NCBI GenBank assembly: GCA_012490745.1
Contig: GCA_012490745.1_3925.1
DNA from: a phage
DNA length: 64,000 bases
Reading direction: 5' to 3' (one strand)
Shown here: in pieces, positions 4,983 through 22,834 of the stretch
Layout of the letters: every line of letters starts with the position of its first letter
How positions within the stretch are numbered: the first letter of the stretch is position 1
Notes under the pieces: generated by a model
What the model was told of the DNA's origin: nothing
Seen by the model: only the letters and a program-made list of their open reading frames with translations
Database searches by the model: none
Position numbers and translations under genes: made by a program

Positions 4983-5246
4983 ATGGAAAACGTAGAATTA
5001 ACCACACTTTTACAAATTGCAACCGACAAAGAAGATGTAGCATTATTTCACCGTATTGAAAGTGATTTGTTCAATGGTGAAATCATCAAAGAATCTTACG
5101 AAGTTGTCGGATTCAAAGATGGTAAAGCGTTTGGCTTTTTTGACCTCGATAAAGGCAACGCTGTTACAAAATATGATGTTTTATCTTGTGAGATTCTTAC
5201 AAAATACAACGAAAAAAGGCTTGCAACATACGCCAATATGCAGTAA
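4983..5246 (+). CDS. hypothetical early protein (87 aa)
   Basis: ORF behind cassette C. Confidence 0.5.
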   Translation: MENVELTTLLQIATDKEDVALFHRIESDLFNGEIIKESYEVVGFKDGKAFGFFDLDKGNAVTKYDVLSCEILTKYNEKRLATYANMQ

Positions 5247-5311
5247 ATTACTAATCAACGGGAGGGATGACCTCCCCACTAAATAAAACCCTTAAACTAG
5301 GAGATTCAAAA
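5247..5311 (+). promoter_or_regulatory. Cassette family C copy
   Basis: Near-identical to 4918-4982. Confidence 0.55.
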
Positions 5312-5560
5312 ATGGCAACTATCCGCGCTACTGTTAACGAGTTCGGTTTTTCCTCTCTGGATGTTAAATTTGACATTGCAGGCACTGATAACGCCTTTGA
5401 AATGGTGAAATGTCTTATCAGTCAGACCATCAAAGACTATAATCCTTCGGATGAGTTCTGGGAGGAAACAAAACAAGAAGTTCTCAAGGATGGTTATACT
5501 TATCACTATTGGGGAGAAAAAATCGTCTCCCTGTACTACAACAAACAAGATTATAACTAA
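5312..5560 (+). CDS. hypothetical early protein (82 aa)
   Basis: ATG at the conserved cassette position; the ORF-track start 5267 reads through the cassette. Confidence 0.55.
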   Translation: MATIRATVNEFGFSSLDVKFDIAGTDNAFEMVKCLISQTIKDYNPSDEFWEETKQEVLKDGYTYHYWGEKIVSLYYNKQDYN

Positions 5561-5625: not shown

Positions 5626-7236
5626 GTCTATCGAATCCTTATACAATCCCTTTCCCTCACCTTTCCAGAATCTTATCAGACCTTAAAAGCAATAACTCTA
5701 TAGTCTACTCTATAACCTCTTATCAAATCAACTTAAATATAAGCCCATAACCCGAAAGGGAAGGGCAACCCCTTAAACGCTCTATAACGCCCTATAACAG
5801 CCTTATCAACCTAACTTAAGGGGTTGCATTAACTCACCCTAAAAAGCCCTTCCTAGAGCTTCCTAGAACCTTAAAAGAATCTTATAAGGGTGTAAGCTTT
5901 ATTATCTCGTTAGCTATCTTGTGAACTACTAAACAAGCCCCTTGATAGTAACTGAAAAGTATGTTATAGGGGCTATAAAGTTACTTCAAAGTTGCTTAAA
6001 AGTTACGTAAATGCTAGCCCCCTTAACATTTTCTTAACAATTTCTTAACAAACCCTACATAGTTATGCTTTTAAGGCACTTGTTAGCAACTTGTTAGCCC
6101 CTTGTTAAATCTCTGTCAAGACCACGTAAAAGCCTTGTAAGAACCTTTGACATAGTCTTTAAAGCCCCTGTAAAGCCCTATAAAGAGGTATCTGTACAGT
6201 TGGGGTGTAATTACTAGGAAGAGGCTTAAAAGAGCTTACAAGGGGCTATAGAGAGCTTTTAAGAGGGCTATTTAGAGAATCACTAAGAAAGAGAGGGAAC
6301 GATAAGAAAAGAGATAGTGACCATGTTAATAGCTTGTTAAAAAGATTAAACACTTGTTAGAAACTTGTTAATTATCTTAACAAAATAACTCTTAAAAATT
6401 AACTTGTTAGCTCTTGTTAGTCATCTGTTAAGACTCTGTAAAGACCATGTATCGTCTGTTAAGAAACTGTTAAGCCCTTGTTAGTTATGTTAAGAATCTG
6501 TTAAGACCTCTGAAGAGATGTTAAGAGATTGAGAGAGTTGTTAAGAGATTGTTAAGGATATTTTAAAATTCTGCAAAGTACTTGTAAGGGAGCTGTTAAG
6601 GGCTACCAAGCAGATATACATCTTCTACAGATATTTTTCAGTTCCTTCAAAGACCCTAAAAAATGACTTGATAGTCCTATTTTATAAAAATTTTAAAAAT
6701 CTGAATAATTACCTATACAGTCTTTCTAAAATACAGGTAATAACAGGCTTATAAGATACCTTGTTAGTACCGTGTTAGACCTTGTGAGATAAGGTCTGTA
6801 AAGATATTCCTGTTAAGTTTGTTAAAACAGTCTATATAGAGGCTTAGTAGCACCTAGTGAACACCTATAGAGAGTATCATAGCTGACATAATGGGTTACT
6901 GTTAAGTAACACAGATAACCTAGAGATTAAGAGGTGTATAGGAGCTTCTAAGAGAGTGTAGAGAGATGGTTAAGGTGATTGTATAGGTTGTTAAGAAGGC
7001 TTGTTAGAAGAGTGTTTAGAGGGCTATTTAGAAGGGCTATACAGAGGGCTATTAAGACCACTAGATAGTTACTAAGATACTATATAGTACTATATAACTA
7101 TATAGAGAGTAAGATTAAGAAGGTTGTTAAGAAGGGTAGATATTTTATTCACATATGATGGTGACCCAGAGGTTGGGACAACCGATAAAATTTTACTCAA
7201 TAAAAAGCCCCCGATTAAGGAGGCTCTTAAGATATT
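5626..7236. repeat. ORF-free region dense in short direct repeats (CTTGTTAG / CTGTTAAG / TGTTAAGA and GGGCTAT(T/A)(T/A)AGA families)
   Basis: No ORF of 60 aa or more on either strand in the track; dozens of 7-9 nt repeat copies, clustered at 6000-6600. Confidence 0.7.
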
Positions 7237-7860
7237 TTAAATCAGTGTTTCCAGAACTGTTTTTAGGGATGACTTGGTTGTCTGATAAAAATGAGTGAAT
7301 CCGTTGTTGTTATCGAATATCTGCATCATGATATCATCTCCCTTGATTGGGTACACTCGGATATCATAGTGAAAACCATTAAAGACACAAGAACCACTAC
7401 AGAATGCACTAAAGTCAGCCACTGAGATATACTCTTCATGTCCTGTGATTTTTATACAAACACCTTTACTCGGTCTCTTAGGGTTGATATCTTCCATCAC
7501 AGACATACTCTGTCCACCAAGAGATACCATAGTGACCACTTTACGGTTCTTCTGTTTAAAGTACATCTTAACTTTCTGCAAAGTGTCTTCATAGAATGGA
7601 TAAGACCTTTCTACAAAGATTCCTTCAAGTGGCTCTTTACCATTTTCAACTTCTCGGTTATGCCGTACTGCAAAGATAATTTGTTCGAACCAGTCAAGAT
7701 TTTCTTCGGAGAGTGCTTCCCGAACATCCTTCCAGTCAAGTACTAAGTAGTTACCTTCAACTTCTTTTAAGTTATCTTTTTCCATATCTATCACACCATT
7801 ATCGTAAAACTTGATATTCTGGTACTGCGAATTTATTACTATTGTTCTTGATGAGGTCAT
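7237..7860 (-). CDS. hypothetical protein (up to 207 aa; true start probably an internal Met near 7785)
   Basis: Long ORF; its 5' end overlaps the upstream gene by 62 nt. Confidence 0.5.
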   Translation of the reverse strand: MTSSRTIVINSQYQNIKFYDNGVIDMEKDNLKEVEGNYLVLDWKDVREALSEENLDWFEQIIFAVRHNREVENGKEPLEGIFVERSYPFYEDTLQKVKMYFKQKNRKVVTMVSLGGQSMSVMEDINPKRPSKGVCIKITGHEEYISVADFSAFCSGSCVFNGFHYDIRVYPIKGDDIMMQIFDNNNGFTHFYQTTKSSLKTVLETLI

Positions 7861-16000: not shown

Positions 16001-16081
16001 TTTTAAAAGATGTTGACAGACTCTATAAAGTTACTCTAAAGTCTGTCACATCAAACAACAAATGAGAGAAGAGAGTAAAAT

Positions 16082-17497
16082 ATGAGCGAGTTATTTAAAC
16101 ATGCGCACCTTCATGCAGGTCGAACTGAAAATGGTGCTGTAAACCATACTTCATCAATGTCTGCTCTTGTAGATTTTTACAAAGCTGCTGGTTCAAGCCG
16201 TAGCAATGTAGAAATCTTACCAGACTTGTTCTACAAAGCTTTGCGTGAGGATGTTGATGTTGCAGTTCGTATTTTACTGCATATGCGAGATGTACGAGAA
16301 GGTATGGGTGAGCGTAAAGCCTTCAGAACTGTTTTGCTTCAAGCGATTGAAGATAAAGTTTTAGAACCTACACAGGTTCTTCGCATTATGGATAAGATTG
16401 CAGAACTTGGTCGTTTTGATGACTTCAAAATCTTCGTAGGTACTCGTTTCGAGACAGATGCCTTCAAACATTTAGAAGCAGCATTACTAGACCATGCAAC
16501 AGCAGGTTTAGCAGCTAAGTGGTTGCCACGAGTAAAACCACGCCACAAACAGTTTGTAAAACGTTTCTGCAAGTTTGCCAACTTGAGTGAGAAAGAGTAC
16601 CGCACACTGTTGTCTGCACTATCTGATACAGTTGAGCAAAAAATCTCTGCTAATGAGTTTGGTAAGATTGATTACAGCAAGATTCCTTCACTTGCTGCTG
16701 CACGTTACCAAAAACTCTTTAACCGTAAAGATGGAGAGCGCTACAAAGCTTACATCGAGTCCTTATCAAAGGGTGAGACTAAGATTAATGCTGGTGCTGT
16801 TTACCCATACGATGTGATTAAATCTGTTAAGTATGGTAATGCAGATGTTGCTAATGAGCAGTGGAAAGCACTACCAAACTGGATGGCAGAGGGTGAAAAC
16901 ATTCTATGTATGTCTGATGTTTCAAGTTCAATGTCTTGGGTGAATTTTGGTTCAATTACTGCTCTTGATATTGGTGTTTCACTTGCATTGTATGTAGCAG
17001 AACGTAATACAGGTTGCTTTAAGAATGAGTTGATGGTTTATTCAACAAACCCTCACTTCATTGAACTGAGTGGTGATTTACGAAACCGTCATCGTCAGGT
17101 AATGCGTCATGTTGAATACGGTTCAACTAACTTACAAGCAGCTTTTGACCGCATTCTTGAGACAGGTAAGAGAAACAACTTGACTCAGAAAGATATGCCA
17201 AGTAAGCTTATCATCTTCTCTGATATGGAGTTCAATCAGGTTGACGGTGCAAATGGTCGTACAAACTTTGAAGCAATTCGTAGTAAGTACAAAAAAGCTG
17301 GATACGAAATGCCACAACTGGTATTCTGGTACTTAGCAAACCGTAGTGGTACTTGCGAAGTGTCTGTTAAGGATAACGGTGTAGCAATGGTATCAGGGTT
17401 CTCTCCAGCCACTTTAAAAGCTCTGCTTGGTGGTGAGAAGTTTGACCCAACCAGCGTAATGCTCAAAGCAGTAATGATTGACCGTTACATCTGGTAA
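16082..17497 (+). CDS. putative vWA/MIDAS-like domain protein (471 aa)
   Basis: Possible MIDAS-like D-x-S-x-S (MSDVSSSMS) followed by hydrophobic beta-strand-like segments and IIFSDMEF. Confidence 0.45.
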   Translation: MSELFKHAHLHAGRTENGAVNHTSSMSALVDFYKAAGSSRSNVEILPDLFYKALREDVDVAVRILLHMRDVREGMGERKAFRTVLLQAIEDKVLEPTQVLRIMDKIAELGRFDDFKIFVGTRFETDAFKHLEAALLDHATAGLAAKWLPRVKPRHKQFVKRFCKFANLSEKEYRTLLSALSDTVEQKISANEFGKIDYSKIPSLAAARYQKLFNRKDGERYKAYIESLSKGETKINAGAVYPYDVIKSVKYGNADVANEQWKALPNWMAEGENILCMSDVSSSMSWVNFGSITALDIGVSLALYVAERNTGCFKNELMVYSTNPHFIELSGDLRNRHRQVMRHVEYGSTNLQAAFDRILETGKRNNLTQKDMPSKLIIFSDMEFNQVDGANGRTNFEAIRSKYKKAGYEMPQLVFWYLANRSGTCEVSVKDNGVAMVSGFSPATLKALLGGEKFDPTSVMLKAVMIDRYIW

Positions 17498-17499
17498 AA

Positions 17500-17545
17500 A
17501 GTTTTAAAAAGGGTATTGACAATGTGTTTAATACCCTTTAATATG
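17500..17545 (+). promoter_or_regulatory. Sigma70-like promoter TTGACA-17nt-TAATAT upstream of the tRNA array
   Basis: gggtaTTGACAatgtgtttaataccctTTAATATg; second candidate TTGACA at 17609. Confidence 0.55.
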
Positions 17546-17662
17546 TTCTACATAGAAACGAAATGAGAGCTTTTCTAAGATACTGAAAAATATTTTAAAA
17601 AAGTTCTTGACAACCACTAAAAAATAATGTTAAAGTGGTTACATAGAGTTTGAAAAGTTTAT

Positions 17663-17739
17663 CTCTGTTTAGCTCAGCTTGGTAGAGCGTTCCGTTTGGG
17701 GCGGTAAGGCCGGAGGTTCAAGTCCTCCAACAGAGACCA
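17663..17739 (+). tRNA. tRNA-Pro (anticodon TGG)
   Basis: Acceptor ctctgtt/aacagag, T-arm ggagg-ttcaagt-cctcc, anticodon loop tttgggg, CCA encoded. Confidence 0.6.
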
Positions 17740-17746
17740 AATTAAT

Positions 17747-17824
17747 GTTCCAGTAGACAAAATGGTAAAGTCACCACTCTTTCAAAGTGGATATCTGAGG
17801 GTTCAAATCCCTTCTGGAACGCCA
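17747..17824 (+). tRNA. tRNA-Glu (TTC)
   Basis: Acceptor gttccag/ctggaac, anticodon arm ccact-ctttcaa-agtgg, T-loop ttcaaat, discriminator G. Confidence 0.7.
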
Positions 17825-17915
17825 GTTTTGACAGAAGACCAATTACAGCAAACTTAATCTTATTCATCTGAAGGTAAATCGGACAAAGAAGAGATTTGGT
17901 CTGGTCATTAAGAAT

Positions 17916-17992
17916 TGCGGGTATAGAGAAAGGGCGTCTCACATGTCTCATTAGCATGGTATCGGCAGGTTCGACTCCTGCACCCGCCTCCA
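17916..17992 (+). tRNA. tRNA-Met (CAT); possibly initiator
   Basis: Anticodon arm catgt-ctcatta-gcatg, T-arm gcagg-ttcgact-cctgc, 1:72 mismatch. Confidence 0.55.
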
Positions 17993-18069
17993 ATTTTGCA
18001 GAAGACCGTATTCAGCAACAAAATACTTTTTGCGGATAAAAGAAAAAACACGGTCTGGCAATGTATTAA

Positions 18070-18146
18070 GGTTAGGAAGCACATAAGGTATGTGCGGTCG
18101 CCTGTTAAGCGAATGGCACAGGGTTCGAATCCCTGACTAACCGCCA
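18070..18146 (+). tRNA. tRNA-Asn (GTT)
   Basis: Anticodon loop ctgttaa, T-arm caggg-ttcgaat-ccctg, CCA encoded. Confidence 0.65.
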
Positions 18147-18155
18147 AATTTAAAT

Positions 18156-18243
18156 GTGTCGTTATCCCGTAGATGGTAGCGGTGGGGACTGTAAATCCCT
18201 TGTCATTGAGACTCGGTAGGTTCGACTCCTACACGGCACACCA
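18156..18243 (+). tRNA. tRNA-Tyr (GTA), class II
   Basis: Anticodon arm gggga-ctgtaaa-tccct, long variable arm ttgtcattgagactcg, T-arm gtagg-ttcgact-cctac. Confidence 0.7.
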
Positions 18244-18249
18244 AATAAA

Positions 18250-18327
18250 GGTTATGTAGTTTAATCTGGTTAAAATACTCCCCTGTCACGGGAGATGATG
18301 AGGGTTCAAATCCCTTCGTAACCGCCA
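18250..18327 (+). tRNA. tRNA-Asp (GTC)
   Basis: Anticodon arm ctccc-ctgtcac-gggag, T-loop ttcaaat, discriminator G. Confidence 0.7.
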
Positions 18328-18643
18328 AATTATAATAAGTATTTCAAAATGATGTTTGAGAGGGCTATTTTAGCCCCTCCCTTAAAGAGTTCTTACGAGT
18401 ATTCTTTAAAGGAGCAGAAGACCAAATTCAGCAAGTACGTATGATATTTTCAAGCCAATTTAATTTTGAAAAAATTTATAAAACTTGGTCTGGCTCAACA
18501 ATTTTACAGAAGACCGTTTACAGCAAAACTTAAACAATCTATTTCTCCGGTAAAGAAAAGGCGAAGGTTCGATTCCTTCACTCGGCAGATGTCGAGTTGG
18601 TGTAATGGTAGCACTTAAGATGATAAACAACGGTCTGGTAATT

Positions 18644-18779
18644 ATCTTTGTAGATAAGTTATTAAGCTTACCTGTGAGTATGCGACCACAAAGGGTGAAA
18701 GGGTAAATTCTAGATTTAAACCCAAAAAGGCACATCGCTACAGACCTTAAGCAAGTCTGGGTAGCTTATCTACAAAGAT
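18644..18779 (+). ncRNA. Candidate structured small RNA: 15-bp perfect inverted repeat (atctttgtagataag / cttatctacaaagat) enclosing 106 nt with internal hairpins
   Basis: Perfect long-range stem plus internal hairpins cagac-cttaagcaa-gtctg and gggt...accc; lies between tRNA genes. Confidence 0.4.
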
Positions 18780-18787
18780 AATTTAAT

Positions 18788-18863
18788 GGAAGTGTAGCAG
18801 AATGGTGATGCGGCAGACTTTTAATCTGACAGGCGATGGGTTCGAATCCCTCCACTTCTACCA
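18788..18863 (+). tRNA. tRNA-Lys (TTT)
   Basis: Acceptor ggaagtg/cacttct, anticodon loop cttttaa, T-loop ttcgaat; paralog of 20023-20098. Confidence 0.6.
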
Positions 18864-18867
18864 AAAT

Positions 18868-18944
18868 GGTTCAGTCGCAGATAAGGTAATGCAAGGGTCT
18901 CATAAGCCCTATGAATGTGGGTTCGATTCCCATCTGAACCTCCA
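18868..18944 (+). tRNA. tRNA with CAT anticodon (elongator Met, or Ile2 if lysidine-modified)
   Basis: Acceptor ggttcag/ctgaacc, anticodon arm agggt-ctcataa-gccct, T-loop ttcgatt. Confidence 0.6.
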
Positions 18945-18945
18945 A

Positions 18946-19021
18946 GCTGGTATAGTTAAGAAGGTTATAACACTCCCCTGATAAGGGAACATCGGTGGTT
19001 CGATTCCACCTACCAGTACCA
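18946..19021 (+). tRNA. tRNA-Ile (GAT)
   Basis: D-arm gtta...taac, anticodon loop ctgataa, T-arm ggtgg-ttcgatt-ccacc. Confidence 0.65.
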
Positions 19022-19029
19022 ATTTCAAT

Positions 19030-19075
19030 AAAGTTGTTGACACTGAGATGTGACTACTTTATAGTAACCTTAGTT
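19030..19075 (+). promoter_or_regulatory. Internal promoter TTGACA-17nt-TATAGT within the tRNA array
   Basis: aaagttgTTGACActgagatgtgactacttTATAGTaacc. Confidence 0.55.
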
Positions 19076-19269
19076 TTCGTTGCGTAGCGTCTATTTTGCA
19101 AATTTAAAATAAATGCAAACGACAATGTTTTTCTGGCAGTAGCTTGATAGGCTAAACACCAGTGAGGTCTTCCAATCCCTCATCAAAGAATTTGGCGTAC
19201 TAGCCCACGGTATGATTAATAAGGTGGGCATCTTTAAGGGCTTTCTAAGAGAGTCTTTAAAGATAATTA

Positions 19270-19351
19270 CGGGGCGTATCTCAGCGGTCTTCTAAACCGC
19301 CGTTAACCGAGTAAGTGGAGTATGCGGGTTCGAGTCCTGCCGCCTCGACCA
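19270..19351 (+). tRNA. atypical tRNA-like gene (candidate Arg-TCT); cloverleaf not resolved
   Basis: Good acceptor cggggcg/cgcctcg and T-arm gcggg-ttcgagt-cctgc; perfect hairpin gcggt-cttctaa-accgc sits where the D-arm should be. Confidence 0.4.
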
Positions 19352-19494
19352 ATTTAGTTAGCAGATTACTTAGACGACCTAAGCGGGTCTTCCTGTAGGG
19401 AGGTGGTCTGTATCTCATGTTTTCCAGAACATGTAAATAATCTGAGAAGGGGCTTTACAGTGTTGAGATAATACGGTAAGCTTCGAATTATAGT

Positions 19495-19577
19495 ATGGGA
19501 CGATGTTAAGACTCTAAGGCATGAGCAACGGCCTCCAAAACCGTTTCAAAGGGGTTCAACTCCTCCGTCCCATGCCA
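19495..19577 (+). tRNA. tRNA-like gene, candidate Trp (CCA), with 7-8 extra nt in the 5' region
   Basis: Perfect acceptor atgggac/gtcccat, anticodon loop ctccaaa, T-loop ttcaact. Confidence 0.45.
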
Positions 19578-19590
19578 AAGTCTTATTAGG

Positions 19591-19680
19591 GGTAGGTAGC
19601 GGCTAATGGCAGCCAAACAGTCTTGAAAACTGTTGCCACTGTAGAGATACGGTGAGGGTTCGACTCCTTTACTTACCGCC
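19591..19680 (+). tRNA. tRNA-Ser (TGA), class II
   Basis: Anticodon arm acagt-cttgaaa-actgt, long variable arm, T-arm gaggg-ttcgact-ccttt, discriminator G. Confidence 0.65.
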
Positions 19681-19937
19681 TAATAAGATTTTTAAAGCCA
19701 AGCTTCATTCGGATGTTGCTTTGGTATACCGCGTGTATTGTCGTACACACAGATAAAGCACCTAGTAGGTGTCACGGAGAAGAGATAATATCAAGCTCTC
19801 CAAAGGTTCTAGTCACCGGATTAAACAAGACTATGCAAAGGCCTTTTTAGGTCTTTTTAGAGGGCTTCTAAGGTTATTACAGCTTGTTGTGGAACCTTGT
19901 TGCTTAGGTTCTTAGAAGTTCTCTAAAAAGATTTAAT

Positions 19938-20015
19938 GGGAGATTGACGGTAATTGGTAAACCTACCATCCTTAGAAGTTGGTGTTTGAGGGTTCGAATC
20001 CCTTGTCTCCTACCA
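19938..20015 (+). tRNA. tRNA with TAG anticodon (Leu) but class I length
   Basis: Anticodon arm ccatc-cttagaa-gttgg, Leu-like D-loop aattggtaaac, discriminator A, T-arm gaggg-ttcgaat-ccctt. Confidence 0.5.
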
Positions 20016-20022
20016 AATTAAT

Positions 20023-20098
20023 GCAGGTGTAGCAAAATGGTTATGCGGCTGACTCTTAATCAGTAAGACGATGGGTTCAATTCCCTCCACCTGTACCA
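20023..20098 (+). tRNA. tRNA-Lys (CTT)
   Basis: Anticodon arm gctga-ctcttaa-tcagt, T-loop ttcaatt, acceptor gcaggtg/cacctgt. Confidence 0.6.
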
Positions 20099-20104
20099 AA
20101 CAAT

Positions 20105-20180
20105 GGGGATGTAGTTTACATGGTTAAAACATAAGTTTTGCAAACTTAAGTACAGGGTTCAATTCCCTGCTTCTCCACCA
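20105..20180 (+). tRNA. tRNA-Ala (TGC)
   Basis: D-arm gttt...aaac, anticodon arm taagt-tttgcaa-actta, T-arm caggg-ttcaatt-ccctg. Confidence 0.65.
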
Positions 20181-20186
20181 ATTAGT

Positions 20187-20261
20187 GCATCCATAGTTTA
20201 AACGGGAAAATTACAGTCTTCCAAACTGAGGTTGAGGGTTCGATTCCCTCTGGATGCTCCA
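20187..20261 (+). tRNA. tRNA-Gly (TCC)
   Basis: Perfect acceptor gcatcca/tggatgc, anticodon loop cttccaa, T-arm gaggg-ttcgatt-ccctc. Confidence 0.65.
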
Positions 20262-20266
20262 AACAA

Positions 20267-20344
20267 TGCTGCTTTCGTATAATTGGCTATTACACATCCC
20301 TTGTAAGGATGGAAATGCAGGTTCGAGTCCTGTGAGCAGCACCA
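20267..20344 (+). tRNA. tRNA-Thr (TGT)
   Basis: Anticodon arm catcc-cttgtaa-ggatg, T-loop ttcgagt. Confidence 0.65.
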
Positions 20345-20440
20345 ATTCAGAGGTCAAGTGAAAGACCGCTTTGAGTCAACTGAAGACCGTAACAAATTCC
20401 ACGGAGTTGAGTTAGCGGCACAACTCCAGACCTCTTTCAT

Positions 20441-20515
20441 ACTCGCTTAGTTTATATGGTAAAACATCACCCTTACAAGATGAAGAAAAAGGTTCAAGTC
20501 CTTTAGTGAGTACCA
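20441..20515 (+). tRNA. tRNA-Val (TAC)
   Basis: D-arm gttt-atatggta-aaac, anticodon loop cttacaa, T-arm aaagg-ttcaagt-ccttt. Confidence 0.6.
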
Positions 20516-20516
20516 T

Positions 20517-20594
20517 GTTCCAGTATCCCAATTGGCAGAGGATGCAAGCTCAAACCTTGTACTAGTGACGGTTCGAATCCGTCTTGGAACACCA
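20517..20594 (+). tRNA. tRNA with CAA anticodon (Leu) but short variable arm
   Basis: Anticodon arm (t)gcaag-ctcaaac-cttgt(a), Leu-like D-loop aattggcagag, discriminator A, T-arm gacgg-ttcgaat-ccgtc. Confidence 0.5.
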
Positions 20595-20599
20595 ATTTT

Positions 20600-20675
20600 G
20601 CAGGATTAGTTCAAATGGATAGAGCAACAGTCTACGAAGCTGTTAATAGGGGTTCGAATCCCTTATCCTGCGCCA
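20600..20675 (+). tRNA. tRNA-Arg (ACG)
   Basis: Perfect acceptor gcaggat/atcctgc, anticodon arm acagt-ctacgaa-gctgt, T-loop ttcgaat. Confidence 0.65.
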
Positions 20676-20694
20676 ATTTAAAGAGGCTATTTAG

Positions 20695-21252
20695 ATGAGA
20701 TATTTGAAGTATGCTTCATGGATTTTCTTAGCTTTGTTAGAGCCATTTGCAGCAATCTTAGCAGTTATCTTAGCACCTTTTGTAGTTCCATTCTACAGTG
20801 AGAAGAAAGGACACTTACCTTTCGGGTTCAGATGGATGGAGACATATGACAACCCAATTGATGGTGATGAAGGTCACGTTAAAAGATGGGCTAATATTAG
20901 ATGGATTGGTAAACTAGGTGTCTACATGCAAAGAGTCGGATGGCTCTGGAGAAACAAAGCTTATAACTTCTCTTACCATGTATTAGGAAGAGATGTAAGA
21001 GATGTTACTAAGTGGAAAGGTAATATCAACGTAAGTTCTGACCCCGAAGATAATCAGACAGGTTATCTCCTAATGTGGAACAGTAATGCTTGGGGATTAT
21101 TCGCTTTTATCCCATCAATTAAAATCTTTGGTAAACAGTTTTACTGGAGAATTTATATTGGATGGAAACTTAAAAGTGTTGTCCCAGAAGAAAGAGCATT
21201 CTCAAGGGAAAGAGTTATGTTGGCATTCTTTATTCATCCACTGAGAAAGTAA
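20695..21252 (+). CDS. hypothetical Trp-rich membrane protein (185 aa) embedded in the tRNA array
   Basis: ORF with SD aaGAGG; N-terminal TM helix (WIFLALLEPFAAILAVILAPFVVPF). Confidence 0.55.
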   Translation: MRYLKYASWIFLALLEPFAAILAVILAPFVVPFYSEKKGHLPFGFRWMETYDNPIDGDEGHVKRWANIRWIGKLGVYMQRVGWLWRNKAYNFSYHVLGRDVRDVTKWKGNINVSSDPEDNQTGYLLMWNSNAWGLFAFIPSIKIFGKQFYWRIYIGWKLKSVVPEERAFSRERVMLAFFIHPLRK

Positions 21253-21260
21253 AGATTTAA

Positions 21261-21336
21261 AGGGGATTAGTTTACAAGGTTAAAACCTCGGTCTTTGAAA
21301 TCGAAGAAGTTGGTTCAATTCCAACATCCCCCGCCA
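21261..21336 (+). tRNA. tRNA-Gln (TTG)
   Basis: Anticodon arm tcggt-ctttgaa-atcga, T-arm gttgg-ttcaatt-ccaac, A1:C72 mismatch. Confidence 0.55.
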
Positions 21337-21338
21337 AT

Positions 21339-21416
21339 GCTCCATTACTCCAATTGGCAGAGAGGCCAGACTTAAAATCTGTGTTATGTATCGGTTCGAA
21401 TCCGATATGGAGTACC
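21339..21416 (+). tRNA. tRNA with TAA anticodon (Leu) but short variable arm
   Basis: Paralog of 20517-20594 (D-loop aattggcagag), anticodon loop cttaaaa, discriminator A. Confidence 0.5.
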
Positions 21417-21422
21417 AAATTT

Positions 21423-21497
21423 AGCGGTATAGCATAACTGGCAATGCAACAGTCTCTGAAGCTGTCCTATTAAGGTTCAAATCCTTATGCCGCTGCC
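21423..21497 (+). tRNA. tRNA-Gln (CTG)
   Basis: D-arm gcat...atgc, anticodon arm acagt-ctctgaa-gctgt, T-arm taagg-ttcaaat-cctta. Confidence 0.55.
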
Positions 21498-21529
21498 ACT
21501 TCTAAGGATTCTTACGAGAGTCCTTAAAT

Positions 21530-21605
21530 GTGGCCTTATCATAAAAGGTAATGACCCATGCTGTGAACATGGTCTATACGGGTTCAAATCCCGTAGGTCA
21601 CCCCA
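21530..21605 (+). tRNA. tRNA-His (GTG)
   Basis: Anticodon arm ccatg-ctgtgaa-catgg, discriminator C73, T-arm acggg-ttcaaat-cccgt. Confidence 0.65.
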
Positions 21606-21610
21606 ATTTA

Positions 21611-21688
21611 TAGTCCAAGTAGCTTATATGGTTAAAGCGCGTGTCTGAAAAACATGAGAAGAGGGTTCAAATCCCACTGGACTACCAA
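21611..21688 (+). tRNA. tRNA-Phe (GAA)
   Basis: Perfect acceptor tagtcca/tggacta, anticodon loop ctgaaaa, T-loop ttcaaat. Confidence 0.65.
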
Positions 21689-21703
21689 TTTCAAAGGTGC
21701 TTA

Positions 21704-22438
21704 ATGAAAGAGATGACAGAACAAGGTAAGGAGATTTTTAATCTCTTAAAAACTGGTAAAGGGTTTTCTAACCCCCTTATTACTGGTGCAGCAGTTCTCG
21801 GTGGAACCGTAGCTGCCTCTACATCACTTGTAAGCTCTATTAGCTCTGTATCAGACCCTACAGTAAAGGATAAGCTTGTTGCTGCTGGACTTACAACAGT
21901 TCTGCTTAACAGCTTTACCACGAGTCTGACAAGCACTACATCAACTACCAAAACACTAACAGATTACGGTCAAAAGTCCATTGATGAGTTTTCATCACGT
22001 ATGCAGGTAGCAAAAGGTTATTCTAATGTTATGGGTGCAGCAGGTGAACAAGTTGGCTGTACACCATTTAGTGGTATTATGGGTGTTGCTACAGAGTATG
22101 GTCAAAAAGCTATTGATACGATTAACAGTACACTAGATAGTGTTAATGGTGTGTTAAGTGACTTACAAGATGCTATTGATAAGGGTCTTGATACTGTTTC
22201 TGATTTAGCTAATCAGGCTGTTAGCAAGATTAATGAAGGTATCTCAAAGATTACAGCTTATGCAGATGAAGTTGTGCAGATGATTGAAGAAGAAGCTGCC
22301 CTTATTGCAGAGTACCTTAAAACGAATATCAATGGGTTCTTAGCAGGTATCTTACCAGACTGGTTTGATGATGCTTGTAAAACTGGTGTGATTGACACTA
22401 TTGCAACACCAGAAATGAAGAACGCATTACAGAAATAA
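21704..22438 (+). CDS. hypothetical Ser/Thr-rich protein (244 aa)
   Basis: The ORF-track start 21641 lies inside tRNA-Phe; ATG 21704 has SD aaaGGtg 5 nt upstream. Confidence 0.5.
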   Translation: MKEMTEQGKEIFNLLKTGKGFSNPLITGAAVLGGTVAASTSLVSSISSVSDPTVKDKLVAAGLTTVLLNSFTTSLTSTTSTTKTLTDYGQKSIDEFSSRMQVAKGYSNVMGAAGEQVGCTPFSGIMGVATEYGQKAIDTINSTLDSVNGVLSDLQDAIDKGLDTVSDLANQAVSKINEGISKITAYADEVVQMIEEEAALIAEYLKTNINGFLAGILPDWFDDACKTGVIDTIATPEMKNALQK

Positions 22439-22439
22439 T

Positions 22440-22532
22440 GGAAGATTAACCCTAAAAGGTAAGGGAGCAGTTTGCTAAACTGCCAGTAGCTGAGAAATCG
22501 GTGTACCAGTTCAAGTCTGGTATCTTCCTCCA
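22440..22532 (+). tRNA. tRNA-Ser (GCT), class II
   Basis: Perfect acceptor ggaagat/atcttcc, anticodon arm gcagt-ttgctaa-actgc, long variable arm, T-arm accag-ttcaagt-ctggt. Confidence 0.7.
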
Positions 22533-22536
22533 ATTT

Positions 22537-22612
22537 GAATCCGTGACAGAAATGGCTATGTGCCTGTCTGCAAAACAGGTTTATAAGGGTTCGAGTCCCT
22601 TCGGATTCTCCA
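22537..22612 (+). tRNA. tRNA-Cys (GCA)
   Basis: Perfect acceptor gaatccg/cggattc, anticodon arm cctgt-ctgcaaa-acagg, discriminator U73. Confidence 0.7.
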
Positions 22613-22834
22613 AGTTATTTTACTCTCTCTCAATTAAAATAATAATAATGCCCTGCTATAAGTATTCTTCCTTTCGCTACCGAAGAGTATTTTTAGACAG
22701 GGCTTTTTTACAGAGCTATACTTTATAAGAAGACTTATACAGTATGTCTCTGACGTACATTGTGGTTTCTCCTTGACGGTCTCTGTGCCGTCTTTTTTAA
22801 GGGGAAACATGGTTAATTATTTGGAGAAAACATA

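What the first reader, a model, noticed from the sequence alone, without database searches (positions are those of the whole stretch)
17663..22612. About 27 tRNA genes with encoded CCA ends, interrupted by two protein genes
The array appears to cover most amino acids (no Gly-GCC or clear initiator identified by eye). Nearly all genes encode the 3' CCA. Two ORFs sit inside the array: a Trp-rich membrane protein (20695-21252) and a Ser/Thr-rich protein (21704-22438). The array also has its own TTGACA-type promoters at 17507, 17609 and 19040.
Basis: partly seen in the sequence, partly recalled or inferred. Interest (0 to 1): 0.45.

Follow-up and report, generated by a model that had tools for sequence, protein, structure and literature searches.

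The report
Felix O1-type phage tRNA and small-RNA island
This is the already published tRNA gene cluster of a Felix O1-like coliphage, but its "gaps" hold unannotated structured RNAs, including four Y-RNA-like modules beside a Ro60-like gene and a tmRNA-like coding RNA.

Summary
ARAGORN finds 25 tRNA genes at 17663-22612, all on the + strand. Twenty-four of them encode CCA; tRNA-Ser(UGA) ends CCU. Both ORFs and all three TTGACA promoters are present.

The window is a Felixounavirus, 97% identical to phages EcoM2 and AYO145A. Its tRNA cluster was published with Felix O1 in 2010, so the array itself is already known.

About 1.6 kb of the interval is not tRNA, and this part is less ordinary:
- The gene just upstream (16082-17497, DUF2828) folds as a Ro60/TROVE ring plus a vWA domain.
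- Four spacer elements (17826-17912, 17993-18066, 18409-18500, 18501-18646) share a covarying bulged closing stem and a UNCNGCA motif.
- The fourth element carries V, T, closed-acceptor and D arms in the order seen in YrlA Y RNAs.
- Such units occur in every fetched locus that holds this gene, including a mycobacteriophage. They are absent from the full array of the one Ounavirinae relative checked that lacks it.
- Positions 19072-19232 hold a tmRNA-like coding module (tag ANDNVFLAVA**) with no tRNA-like domain. It has matches in 626 phage records plus prophages and plasmids.

Binding and function are inferred, not shown.

The parts
16082..17497 (+).
   Evidence: Pfam; PHROG 850 'RNA-binding protein'. 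AF2 model pLDDT 89. The top 11 Foldseek PDB hits are all Ro60/Rsr/phage phiLo Ro60, E 8e-8 to 4e-6. The MIDAS residues D279, S281 and S283 are invariant.
17516..17544 (+). promoter-like site TTGACA-17-TAATAT
17607..17636 (+). promoter-like site TTGACA-18-TAAAGT with an upstream TG
17663..17824 (+). tRNA-Pro(UGG) 17663-17739 and tRNA-Glu(UUC) 17747-17824
   Evidence: ARAGORN; Rfam 57.7 and 60.4 bits; CCA encoded
17826..17912 (+). Y-RNA-like unit U1 (short type). Closing stem UGAC/GUCA, internal loop AGA/G, helix AGACCAA/UUGGUCU, then UUACAGCAA
   Evidence: fold; model R1 37.7 bits, E 4e-6, not in the seed; closing-stem covariation
17916..17992 (+). tRNA-Met(CAU), low-scoring
   Evidence: ARAGORN. 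Not reported by Rfam. Cove score 28.9 in Felix O1 (PMC3185647).
17993..18066 (+). Y-RNA-like unit U2 (short type)
   Evidence: fold z = -2.2; R1 52.3 bits, E 7e-11, not in the seed
18070..18327 (+). tRNA-Asn(GUU) 18070-18146, tRNA-Tyr(GUA) 18156-18243, tRNA-Asp(GUC) 18250-18327
18383..18412 (+). hairpin UUAAAGAGUUCUUACGAGUAUUCUUUAAAG; one of several similar hairpins (others at 19230-19266 and 21503-21528)
   Evidence: folds; TTCTTACGAG occurs only at 18390 and 21509 in 64 kb
18409..18500 (+). Y-RNA-like unit U3 (short type)
   Evidence: fold; R1 24.4 bits, E 4e-4 with filters off
18501..18646 (+). Y-RNA-like unit U4 (YrlA-like type). Same closing stem, then a V hairpin, a T arm (GAAGGUUCGAUUCCUUC), a closed acceptor-like hairpin and a D arm (GGUGUAAUGGUAGCAC)
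   Evidence: fold. RNAalifold on 9 units from 7 phage lineages: 16 of 21 pairs have compensatory changes. Partial Rfam tRNA hit at 18530-18580.
18647..18787 (+). very stable structured spacer with an 18-bp closing stem; function unknown
   Evidence: -41.7 kcal/mol, z = -4.1. The inner hairpin motif CCUUAAGCAAG recurs in L012, L013, L021 and L024.
18788..19021 (+). tRNA-Lys(UUU) 18788-18863, tRNA-Met(CAU) 18868-18944, tRNA-Ile(GAU) 18946-19021
19037..19065 (+). promoter-like site TTGACA-17-TATAGT (11 of 12 matches); equals P45 proposed in Felix O1
   Evidence: PMC3185647
19072..19232 (+). tmRNA-like coding module with no tRNA-like domain. 5' AGUUUUCGU; AAAAUAAAU upstream of the resume-like codon; tag ORF 19115-19144 (ANDNVFLAVA); stops at 19145-19150; H5-like helix, H-type pseudoknot, and a hairpin with a UGAUUAAUAA loop
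   Evidence: Rfam tmRNA 15.4 bits against a gathering score of 47. ARAGORN calls it only at -ps80/90. Structure count on 9 phage lineages: 93.8% of cells paired, 12 of 22 pairs compensatory. Tag variants.
19270..19351 (+). atypical tRNA-like gene. 7-bp acceptor stem, no D arm (UAUCUCA linker), anticodon arm with loop CUUCUAA (UCU = Arg), 23-nt variable region, T arm, A73, CCA
   Evidence: Rfam tRNA 31.7 bits; missed by ARAGORN. The anticodon stem covaries in L012, ESCO9 and WPEC5. AGA makes up 40% of Arg codons in the window's long ORFs.
19495..19577 (+). atypical tRNA-Trp-like gene. A1-U72, G73, anticodon loop CUCCAAA, expanded region between the acceptor and D stems, CCA
   Evidence: weak Rfam hit of 23 bits. 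Conserved in Felix O1, Mijalis and L012, with a compensatory change in the D stem.
19591..19680 (+). tRNA-Ser(UGA); the only gene without a full CCA (ends CCU)
19938..20344 (+). tRNA-Leu(UAG), Lys(CUU), Ala(UGC), Gly(UCC) and Thr(UGU)
20345..20440 (+). structured spacer; function unknown
   Evidence: -29.4 kcal/mol, z = -3.8
20441..20675 (+). tRNA-Val(UAC), Leu(CAA) and Arg(ACG)
20695..21252 (+). ORF of 185 aa, DUF7338 / PHROG 2143. Trp-rich, with one N-terminal hydrophobic helix; labelled 'holin' or 'membrane protein' in some records without tests
21261..21687 (+). tRNA-Gln(UUG), Leu(UAA), Gln(CUG), His(GUG) and Phe(GAA), with a hairpin at 21503-21528 between Gln and His
21704..22438 (+). ORF of 244 aa, DUF7217 / PHROG 2114. 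Ser/Thr-rich. Kept at the end of the tRNA array, before the terminase gene, in all Ounavirinae-like loci examined
22440..22612 (+). tRNA-Ser(GCU) 22440-22532 and tRNA-Cys(GCA) 22537-22612
22775..22800 (+). intrinsic-terminator-like hairpin with a T run, downstream of the last tRNA

Best explanation
The interval is the tRNA/small-RNA island of a Felix O1-like myovirus (genus Felixounavirus). It lies between a Ro60-like gene and the terminase gene and is transcribed rightward from sigma-70-type promoters at 17516, 17607 and 19037.

The polycistronic transcripts are presumably cut by host RNase P at tRNA 5' ends and trimmed by host exonucleases back to the encoded CCA. This is inferred from how E. 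coli matures its own CCA-encoding tRNA genes. The products would be 25 canonical tRNAs plus atypical Arg(UCU)- and Trp(CCA)-like tRNAs, giving decoders for all 20 amino acids. These suit a 39% G+C phage whose genes favour A/U-ending codons. AGA, rare in E. coli, makes up 40% of Arg codons here.

The same processing would release the spacers as discrete RNAs. Four of them (U1-U4) are Y-RNA-like. Each has a closing stem with a conserved ANA/G internal loop and a UNCNGCA tail. U4 also has a tRNA-like V/T/closed-acceptor/D core, as in bacterial YrlA. I infer that these RNAs are the partners of the adjacent Ro60-like protein. The orthologue of that protein in phage Bas63 (gp130) counters the Ppl defence system.

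A separate promoter-proximal RNA (19072-19232) mimics the coding half of tmRNA.

Shown here: gene content, synteny, RNA structures with covariation, the protein fold, and co-occurrence. Inferred: processing, protein-RNA binding and biological role.
For: Identity and content:
- The region is 96-97% identical over 8.7 kb to more than 200 Felixounavirus genomes. Felix O1 itself has the same 25 ARAGORN genes in the same order.
- The tRNA cluster and codon-usage argument are published for Felix O1 (PMC3185647).
- Codon use in 21 long ORFs of the window is given.

Ro60-like fold:
- AF2 pLDDT is 89. The 11 best PDB matches are all Ro60/Rsr/phage Ro60 over the full length.

Y-like units:
- AGAAGACC occurs at 17833, 18000, 18416 and 18508 on the + strand, with one other + strand and one - strand copy in 64 kb.
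- All four units fold with a common closing stem.
- RNAalifold on a plain MAFFT alignment of T-type units from 7 lineages recovers the closing stem, T arm and acceptor-like hairpin; 16 of 21 pairs have compensatory changes.
- Across 25 units, the closing stem is 99.2% paired and 9 of 10 pairs change on both sides, against 17-40% paired in slid controls.
- A covariance model built from T-type units finds the non-seed units U1-U3. It also finds units beside the Ro-like gene in Klebsiella phage KP13-26, contig L023, Aeromonas phage LAh_9 and mycobacteriophage Krypton555.
- The model finds nothing convincing in Erwinia phage phiEa104 (L011). That locus covers a whole tRNA array and has no Ro-like gene.
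- The order V-T-AS-D and the YUAY start of the V region match the published YrlA description (PMC4201824).
- The Krypton555 units share the ACAGCAA motif.
- Bas63 gp130 is reported as Ro60-like and as a counter to Ppl. Its authors guessed that Y RNAs hide among the tRNA genes.
Against: - No expression, processing or binding data exist for this phage's spacers.
- The published Ro-binding motif (GNCGAAN0-1G / CGAA) is absent; these units have ANA-AG instead.
- No Rfam family matches them.
- gp130 alone, from a plasmid or inserted in T7, restores plaquing on Ppl strains. The Y-like RNAs are therefore not needed for that activity.
- U1 and U2 sit exactly between tRNAs, so they could be processing spacers.
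- The 25-unit closing-stem alignment was assembled partly by looking for pairing, which inflates the percentage paired. The RNAalifold and covariance-model results do not share this bias.
- Promoter-like sites are not more numerous than in shuffled sequence.
Confidence: 0.75

Rival explanations
1. The array is only a tRNA cluster. The conserved spacer stems are processing or folding signals for the polycistronic precursor, such as RNase E/III/P entry sites or insulators that keep adjacent tRNAs from misfolding. They are not stand-alone RNAs bound by the Ro60-like protein.
For: U1 and U2 fill exactly the Glu-Met and Met-Asn spacers. Each unit starts with A/GUUUUG right after a CCA. Other spacers also hold stable hairpins. 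gp130 works without them in T7.
Against: The units follow the Ro-like gene, not the tRNAs. They lie beside it in Aeromonas phage LAh_9 and mycobacteriophage Krypton555, where there is no array. They are absent from the Erwinia Kolesnikvirus array (L011), which lacks the gene. Invariant loop nucleotides and a tRNA-like core are more than a cleavage site needs.
Confidence: 0.15
2. U4 and the atypical Arg/Trp genes are decaying tRNA pseudogenes, and the short units are their remnants, all without function.
For: tRNAscan and RefSeq label several genes of this cluster 'pseudo'. ARAGORN misses the atypical genes.
Against: Compensatory changes maintain every helix across lineages whose Ro-like proteins are only 52-64% identical. 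The anticodon loops CUUCUAA and CUCCAAA are kept while the stems vary. AGA is the commonest Arg codon, and no other tRNA here reads it.
Confidence: 0.07
3. The main selective value of the tRNAs is not codon matching. They replace host tRNAs that are cleaved or depleted by tRNA-targeting defence systems, and the Ro60-like RNP is part of the same RNA-damage counter-measure.
For: The set is near-complete (all 20 amino acids), beyond what codon bias requires. The PhageMaP authors call the Bas63 tRNAs mostly non-essential and conditionally useful, and the neighbouring gene is an anti-defence factor. Bacterial Ro60 operons are linked to RNA repair (PMC7790460, listed).
Against: Nothing in the sequence tests this. 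Ppl is proposed to act on DNA, not tRNA. Codon bias fits at least 7 tRNAs in Felix O1.
Confidence: 0.3

Closest known systems
tRNA gene cluster of Salmonella phage Felix O1 and E. coli phage wV8 (Whichard et al. 2010, PMC3185647; Villegas et al. 2009, PMC2674420)
   Same: Same genus and same position, between ORF42 (the DUF2828 protein) and the terminase gene. ARAGORN finds the same tRNAs in the same order. The internal promoter P45 and the two embedded ORFs are also the same.
   Different: Those papers list 22-23 tRNAs from tRNAscan-SE. They noted a missing AGA decoder and did not describe the spacer RNAs. Felix O1 also carries three HNH endonuclease genes inside the array that this window lacks.
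Bacterial and phage Y RNAs (YrlA/YrlB) with Ro60/Rsr (Chen et al. 2014, PMC4201824; phiLo Ro60-Yrl1/2, PMC12135203)
   Same: Small RNAs encoded within about 1.2 kb of a Ro60-fold gene, here on the same strand. Each has a terminal stem with a conserved internal loop. One member has V, T, closed-acceptor and D arms in the YrlA order, and shorter members lack the tRNA-like core, as YrlB does.
   Different: The protein is the DUF2828 branch and gets no Pfam TROVE hit. The CGAA/GNCGAAG motif is replaced by ANA-AG plus UNCNGCA. There are four tandem copies interleaved with real tRNAs. No binding data exist.
tmRNA (ssrA)
   Same: A resume-type GCA codon preceded by AAAAUAAAU. A 10-codon tag, ANDNVFLAVA, against ANDENYALAA in E. 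coli (the latter from my own knowledge). Double stop codons inside an H5-like helix, followed by an H-type pseudoknot.
   Different: No tRNA-like domain is formed by its ends, and the transcript appears to begin about 43 nt before the tag. It is below the Rfam gathering score and below the ARAGORN default. Two genome announcements called it 'ssrA' from ARAGORN output (PMC4319497, PMC4392139). A curated tmRNA survey of RefSeq viruses listed no enterobacterial phage (PMC4131195).
T4 and T5 tRNA regions (own knowledge: the T4 cluster encodes eight tRNAs plus two stable RNAs of unknown function, species 1 and 2)
   Same: A virulent coliphage tRNA cluster co-transcribed with non-tRNA stable RNAs and processed by host enzymes. 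Some genes lack an encoded CCA.
   Different: No sequence relationship was tested. T4 has no Ro60-like gene next to its cluster, to my knowledge.

Membership tests
Felixounavirus tRNA cluster | High nucleotide identity and synteny with published Felixounavirus genomes (DUF5681 - DUF2828 - tRNAs - DUF7217 - terminase) | tested here: met
   96-97% identity over 8.7 kb to more than 200 records. The annotated gene order is the same in EcoM2, AYO145A and Felix O1.
Felixounavirus tRNA cluster | Same tRNA complement and order as Felix O1 | tested here: met
   ARAGORN finds 25 genes with an identical anticodon series in the window and in Felix O1.
Canonical tRNA genes (27 candidate loci) | Cloverleaf accepted by automated predictors | tested here: met
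   25 of 27 accepted by ARAGORN. 23 loci pass the Rfam RF00005 gathering score. The loci at 19270 and 19495 are atypical, and Rfam does not report 17916.
Canonical tRNA genes (27 candidate loci) | Aminoacylation and use in translation | not testable with these tools
   Only sequence-level identity elements could be read. Examples: A1-U72/G73/CCA for the Trp-like gene; G3.U70/A73 alongside a UCU anticodon for the Arg-like gene.
Ro60 / TROVE proteins (for 16082-17497) | HEAT-repeat ring followed by a vWA domain with a MIDAS motif | tested here: met
   Full-length Foldseek matches to 2i91, 1yvr, 2nvo, 9kop, 9l5y and 9nfa, with TM 0.46-0.66 and E down to 8e-8. The DxSxS residues D279, S281 and S283 are invariant in 40 homologues.
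Ro60 / TROVE proteins (for 16082-17497) | Sequence-profile membership (Pfam TROVE) | tested here: not met
   Pfam hits are DUF2828 and DUF7788 only. The profile search against PDB gives TROVE chains at E = 1.8, which is not significant.
Y RNA (YrlA/YrlB type) | Encoded within 4 kb of the Ro60 homologue on the same strand | tested here: met
   Units lie 330-1150 nt downstream of the stop codon, on the + strand. The same holds in 11 further loci.
Y RNA (YrlA/YrlB type) | Terminal stem formed by the 5' and 3' ends, carrying a conserved internal loop or bulge | tested here: met
Y RNA (YrlA/YrlB type) | tRNA-like domain with V, T, closed acceptor-like and D stem-loops in that order | tested here: met
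   Met for U4 and its orthologues, compared with the description in PMC4201824. U1-U3 lack the domain, as YrlB does.
Y RNA (YrlA/YrlB type) | Ro-binding sequence motif GNCGAAN0-1G / CGAA | tested here: not met
   The invariant positions are A5, A7, G9 and U..C.GCA. No unit in the window has CGAA.
Y RNA (YrlA/YrlB type) | Physical association with the Ro60 homologue | not testable with these tools
   Only co-occurrence is shown.
tmRNA | Tag reading frame without a start codon, with a resume codon, an upstream A-rich frame-setting element and terminal stop codon(s) | tested here: met
   The peptide is conserved across families, mostly through synonymous changes.
tmRNA | Alanine-accepting tRNA-like domain (G3.U70, T arm, CCA) formed by the RNA's own 5' and 3' ends | tested here: not met
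   ARAGORN finds none at default settings. The relaxed calls borrow halves of neighbouring tRNAs. The Schitoviridae copies have no T arm nearby.
tmRNA | Rfam gathering score | tested here: not met
   15.4 bits in the window and at most 33.7 bits in other phages, against 47.

The most novel reading that the evidence does not exclude
The promoter-proximal RNA at 19072-19232 would be the founding example of a new class: a tmRNA-derived coding RNA that has lost its own tRNA-like domain. Virulent phages (Ounavirinae, Ackermannviridae, Schitoviridae), lambdoid prophages and SSU5/pHCM2-type phage-plasmids would use it to hijack or re-programme host ribosome rescue, for example by substituting a phage-specified tag ending in LAVA or LMAA. 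In the same reading, the four Y-like RNAs would be the RNA subunits of the Ro60-like anti-defence protein. The 'tRNA array' would then be a multi-purpose RNA arsenal rather than a codon-usage patch.
Probability: 0.2. Interest if true: 0.8.

Novelty: new member of a known kind. Interest (0 to 1): 0.4.

Why it matters
The tRNA array itself adds nothing new; it was described with Felix O1 in 2010.

The spacer RNAs do give concrete, coordinate-level candidates for a question left open by recent work. Bas63 gp130, the Felixounavirus Ro60-like protein, counters the Ppl defence system. Its authors could only guess that some annotated tRNAs might be Y RNAs. The candidates identified here are instead four unannotated spacer elements with a conserved bulged stem. 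This makes the RNP hypothesis directly testable by pull-down, loop mutations or deletion of 17826-18646.

The atypical UCU tRNA may explain the 'missing' AGA decoder noted in the Felix O1 paper.

The tmRNA-like module is unannotated in every listed record in which a feature could be checked, apart from a few hypothetical-protein calls. It is structurally conserved across unrelated phage families. If it is functional, it would bear on how phages interact with trans-translation.

Tried and rejected
1. A true or permuted tmRNA gene. ARAGORN at default settings finds none in the window, Felix O1, Mijalis or CBA120. At -ps80/90 it reports 'permuted' tmRNAs whose tRNA halves are pieces of tRNA-Lys, tRNA-Ile or the atypical tRNA. 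These calls are artefacts around a real resume/tag motif.
2. The atypical tRNA at 19270 as the alanine-accepting domain of that tmRNA-like RNA. It has G3.U70 and A73. However, the ESCO9 homologue has G3-C70 and its own promoter with no tag module. Mooglevirus has an ordinary tRNA-Arg(UCU) at that position. Not supported.
3. Base pairing between the atypical tRNA's GGUCUUCU and the Y-unit motif AGAAGACC. This is a single 8-mer match, at chance level for 64 kb, and it is not conserved in L012 or ESCO9. Rejected.
4. Direct sequence links of the DUF2828 protein to Ro60. phmmer and a 40-sequence profile against PDB were not significant, and NCBIfam gave nothing. Only the fold comparison was decisive.
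5. An Rfam family for the units. None was found; there were only partial tRNA hits.
6. Supplementary tables of Chen et al. 2014, to see whether Felix O1 was among their 22 phages. These are not held.
7. Strict regular-expression scans for the units. They missed many variants, so they were replaced by a covariance model.
8. The host ssrA as the source of the similarity. The E. coli genome search hit 338 of 5,426 genomes, in prophages and plasmids, and did not hit the chromosomal ssrA gene.

Full report
**1. Observation**

ARAGORN finds 25 tRNA genes, all on the + strand, from 17663 to 22612.

Rfam's tRNA model passes its gathering score at 23 loci:
- Twenty-two of them are ARAGORN genes.
- The other is an extra locus at 19270-19348 (31.7 bits).
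- Tyr and Ser(UGA) align better to the tRNA-Sec model, below its threshold.
- The first tRNA-Met (17916-17992) is not reported by Rfam.

A script check shows that 24 of the 25 genes end in an encoded CCA. tRNA-Ser(UGA) ends G-CC-T.

The two embedded ORFs are at the stated coordinates:
- 20695-21252 encodes 185 aa with 5.9% Trp and one N-terminal hydrophobic helix (DUF7338).
- 21704-22438 encodes 244 aa with 20.5% Ser+Thr (DUF7217).

The number of promoter-like sites overall is not above shuffled expectation. The support for these three sites is therefore their position, their quality and, for 19037, the published Felix O1 promoter P45.

No Gly-GCC gene is present. By inspection of the sequence, neither CAU tRNA has the bacterial initiator signature. 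One has a U1.C72 mismatch but an A/U-rich anticodon stem. The other has three G-C pairs at positions 28-30 with a paired 1-72.

**2. What the locus is**

The 8.7 kb around the array is 96-97% identical to more than 200 Felixounavirus genomes, including EcoM2, KhF3, AYO145A and VpaE1. The annotated order is DUF5681 protein, 'RNA-binding protein', tRNAs, terminase, portal.

Felix O1 gives the same 25 ARAGORN genes in the same order. The Felix O1 and wV8 papers describe 22-23 tRNAs and argue for codon compensation in a 39% G+C genome. They note that a decoder for the over-used AGA codon seemed to be missing. The array as such is therefore already known.

**3. Two atypical tRNA genes**

*Positions 19270-19351.* This gene has the following parts:
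- a 7-bp acceptor stem;
- a 7-nt linker (UAUCUCA) in place of a D arm;
- a 5-bp stem with the loop CUUCUAA;
- a 23-nt variable region;
- a normal T arm, then A73 and CCA.

Homologues in contig L012, in the Justusliebigvirus ESCO9 and in the jumbo phage WPEC5 keep the loop and the invariant linkers. Their anticodon stems change in a compensatory way: GCGGU/ACCGC, UCUGU/ACAGA, CCUGA/UCAGG and ACGGU/ACCGU.

Mooglevirus and more distant relatives have an ordinary tRNA-Arg(UCU) at or near this position. In 21 long ORFs of the window, AGA accounts for 40% of Arg codons. The gene is therefore probably the AGA decoder.

Two points argue for caution. It lacks the D loop, and in the window it has G3.U70 with A73. 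The amino acid it accepts cannot be read from the sequence.

*Positions 19495-19577.* This gene has A1-U72, G73 and the loop CUCCAAA. From my own knowledge these are the E. coli tRNA-Trp identity set. It has extra nucleotides between the acceptor and D stems. Its D stem changes CUC/GAG to CAC/GUG in Mijalis.

With these two genes, all 20 amino acids have a potential decoder.

**4. The gene upstream is Ro60-like**

The gene at 16082-17497 matches Pfam DUF2828 and DUF7788 and PHROG 850, 'RNA-binding protein'. Sequence searches against PDB were not significant.

An AlphaFold2 model built from 40 homologues has pLDDT 89. Its 11 best Foldseek matches in PDB are all Ro60-type proteins:
- Xenopus and human Ro60;
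- Deinococcus Rsr;
- the Ro60 of Thermus phage phiLo.

These matches are full length, with E from 8e-8 to 4e-6. Isolated vWA domains follow far behind.

Homologues are annotated 'Ro-like RNA binding protein' in mycobacteriophages. They occur in many phage groups.

A 2024 preprint on the Felixounavirus Bas63 reports the following:
- Its gp130, directly upstream of the tRNAs, resembles Ro60.
- It counters the Ppl defence system.
- It does so even when moved alone into T7.

**5. Four Y-RNA-like units in the spacers**

The motif AGAAGACC occurs at 17833, 18000, 18416 and 18508 on the + strand, with one other + strand and one - strand copy in 64 kb. GGTCTGG occurs at 17898, 18052, 18487 and 18632.

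The four units are 17826-17912, 17993-18066, 18409-18500 and 18501-18646. Each folds with the following elements:
- a 4-bp outer helix, different in each unit;
- an AGA/G internal loop;
- a 7-8-bp helix AGACCNN/NNGGUCU;
- a single-stranded UUACAGCAA.

U4 encloses a small hairpin, a T arm (GAAGGUUCGAUUCCUUC), a closed acceptor-like hairpin and a D arm (GGUGUAAUGGUAGCAC). This is the order V, T, AS, D described for YrlA, including the YUAY start of the V region.

*Conservation.* The units are conserved in Felix O1, Mijalis and L012. They persist in contigs whose Ro-like proteins are only 52-56% identical. There the inner helix becomes AGUAUC/GAUACU, AGAAUC/GAUUCU, AGGCUG/CAGCCU or GGACUG/CAGUCC, among others, and the loop becomes AUA, AAA or ACA.

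*Covariation.*
- RNAalifold on a plain MAFFT alignment of nine T-type units recovers both closing helices, the T arm and the acceptor-like hairpin. Sixteen of 21 pairs have compensatory changes.
- On 25 units, the closing stem is 99.2% paired and 9 of 10 pairs change on both sides. Slid controls give 17-40% paired. The caveat is that units were picked partly by pairing.

*Covariance model R1.* The model was built from the T-type units. It finds the non-seed units:

| Unit | Bits |
|---|---|
| U2 | 52 |
| U1 | 38 |
| U3 | 24 |

It finds nothing else in the window other than tandem-tRNA noise. Elsewhere it finds:
- three tandem units just after the Ro-like gene of Klebsiella phage KP13-26;
- two units in L023;
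- short units beside the gene in Aeromonas phage LAh_9;
- one unit at 31 bits in mycobacteriophage Krypton555.

It finds nothing convincing in Erwinia phage phiEa104 (L011), whose locus covers a whole tRNA array and has no Ro-like gene.

The three Krypton555 units downstream of its Ro-like gene share the ACAGCAA motif and a GGAC.../...GUCC-AG stem.

*Limits.* The published CGAA motif is absent. No Rfam family matches. Binding is untested. gp130 counters Ppl without these RNAs.

I therefore treat them as new, divergent members of the phage Y-RNA kind, and treat the partnership with the protein as an inference.

**6. A tmRNA-like coding module**

Downstream of the 19037 promoter the sequence reads AGUUUUCGU...AAAAUAAAU GCA AAC GAC AAU GUU UUU CUG GCA GUA GCU UGA UAG. 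The encoded tag is ANDNVFLAVA**. For comparison, the E. coli tag is ANDENYALAA (own knowledge).

*Database scores.* Rfam's tmRNA model aligns this stretch at 15.4 bits, well below the gathering score of 47.

*Distribution among phages.* BLAST finds the module in 626 phage records. It is unannotated, or lies under hypothetical-protein calls, in the listed records that carry annotation. Tags by group:

| Group | Tag |
|---|---|
| Felixounavirus, Mooglevirus | ANDNVFLAVA |
| Kolesnikvirus | ANDAQFLAVA |
| Kuttervirus CBA120 | ANDNTFLAVA |
| Agtrevirus and two Schitoviridae | ANDDVVLMAA |
| Klebsiella phages KP13-27 and 6991 | ANEEMYLAVA |

*Signs of selection on the peptide.* Between the window and CBA120, six single-nucleotide differences are all silent or stop-preserving, and one codon is replaced entirely. 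No in-frame start codon precedes the tag before a stop is reached (by reading).

*Structure.* A structure of an H5-like helix holding the stop codons, an H-type pseudoknot and a hairpin with a UGAUUAAUAA loop is 93.8% paired on nine lineages. Twelve of 22 pairs are compensatory, against 24-57% paired in slid controls.

*No tRNA-like domain.* No tRNA-like domain belongs to the element. ARAGORN's relaxed 'permuted tmRNA' calls borrow neighbouring tRNA halves.

*Prior mentions.* Two genome announcements mention an ARAGORN 'ssrA' in Moogle and Felix O1. A curated tmRNA survey of RefSeq viruses lists no such phage.

*Beyond lytic phages.* Related copies lie in lambdoid E. coli prophages between the Q antiterminator and the holin gene, with the tag ANEEMYLAVA. 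They also lie in about 100-kb non-mobilizable plasmids such as pHCM2, with the tag ANEDTYLAVA.

How a tag ORF with no start codon and no tRNA-like domain would be used remains unexplained.

**7. Other structured spacers**

- 18647-18787 folds at -41.7 kcal/mol (z = -4.1) with an 18-bp closing stem.
- 20345-20440 folds at -29.4 kcal/mol (z = -3.8).
- A hairpin family with the loop UUCUUACGAG recurs at 18383-18412, 19230-19266 (variant) and 21503-21528.

**8. Mechanism**

*Shown:* the gene content, the structures and the co-occurrence.

*Inferred from established E. coli tRNA maturation:*
- The island is transcribed from the three promoters, with termination near 22775-22800.
- RNase P and 3' exonucleases release tRNAs with ready-made CCA ends.
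- tRNA-Ser(UGA) needs repair of its terminal A.
- The same cuts would free the spacer RNAs.

The tRNAs supply A/U-ending codon decoders. They may also back up host tRNAs under attack by defence systems.

The Ro60-like protein plus U1-U4 would form an RNP. This is by analogy with Rsr-Y RNA-PNPase and with phiLo Ro60-Yrl.

**9. Verdict**

The finding is correct and ordinary as a tRNA array, which is already known for this genus.

What raises it above routine is the unannotated RNA content, in order of how far it departs from what is known:
- the Y-like units, which are new members of a known kind;
- the D-armless UCU tRNA;
- the tmRNA-like module, which may be a new variant and whose function is open.

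Noticed in passing
window 19072-19232 (tag ORF 19115-19150); also L003, L008, L011, L015-L020, L026, L027: A tmRNA-like coding module with no tRNA-like domain. The tag peptide is conserved (ANDNVFLAVA and variants), and the H5-like helix, pseudoknot and hairpin covary. It has matches in 626 phage records across Ounavirinae, Ackermannviridae, Schitoviridae and Klebsiella phages. It also occurs in lambdoid E. coli prophages (between Q and holin) and in pHCM2/pMT1-type plasmids. It is unannotated in almost every record listed.
   Followed up: partly
window 19270-19351; L006 1508-1589; L005 1499-1580; L012 10454-10535: A D-armless tRNA-like gene with anticodon loop CUUCUAA (Arg-UCU) and a 23-nt invariant variable region. 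Unrelated phages (Felixounavirus, Justusliebigvirus ESCO9, jumbo phage WPEC5) share it. ARAGORN misses it. The window copy has G3.U70 and A73, the AlaRS identity elements.
   Followed up: partly
window 19495-19577: A tRNA-Trp-like gene (A1-U72, G73, CCA anticodon) with an expanded acceptor-to-D linker. It falls below the detection thresholds, is conserved in Felix O1, Mijalis and L012, and shows a compensatory D-stem change.
   Followed up: partly
window 18647-18787 and 20345-20440: Two spacers fold far better than shuffles (z = -4.1 and -3.8). The first has an 18-bp closing stem and an inner hairpin motif, CCUUAAGCAAG, that recurs before tRNA-Lys in distant relatives.
   Followed up: partly
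window 18383-18412, 19230-19266, 21503-21528: A family of A/U-rich hairpins with the loop UUCUUACGAG(AG). It is also seen in Erwinia and other relatives and may be processing or protein-binding sites.
   Followed up: partly
L003 (Escherichia phage CBA120, record positions 134.2-136.4 kb): About 2.1 kb with no annotated gene. It contains the tmRNA-like module, several tRNA-like elements that ARAGORN does not call, and many long helices. It looks like an unannotated RNA island in Kuttervirus.
   Followed up: no
L010 (Klebsiella phage KP13-26) 5001-7114: In a Stephanstirmvirinae phage, the Ro60-like gene sits inside the tRNA array and is followed by three tandem Y-like units. This is a second example of linkage between the Ro-like gene, Y-like units and a tRNA array, in a different phage group.
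   Followed up: partly
L007 (Felix O1) 4995-5480, 5968-6360, 7278-7691: Felix O1 carries three HNH homing-endonuclease genes inserted between tRNAs and next to the atypical tRNA. The window lacks them, so the array is a hotspot for endonuclease insertion.
   Followed up: no
window 16013-16042: A TTGACA-18-TAAAGT promoter-like site lies directly upstream of the Ro60-like gene. That gene may therefore have its own promoter, separate from those of the tRNAs.
   Followed up: no
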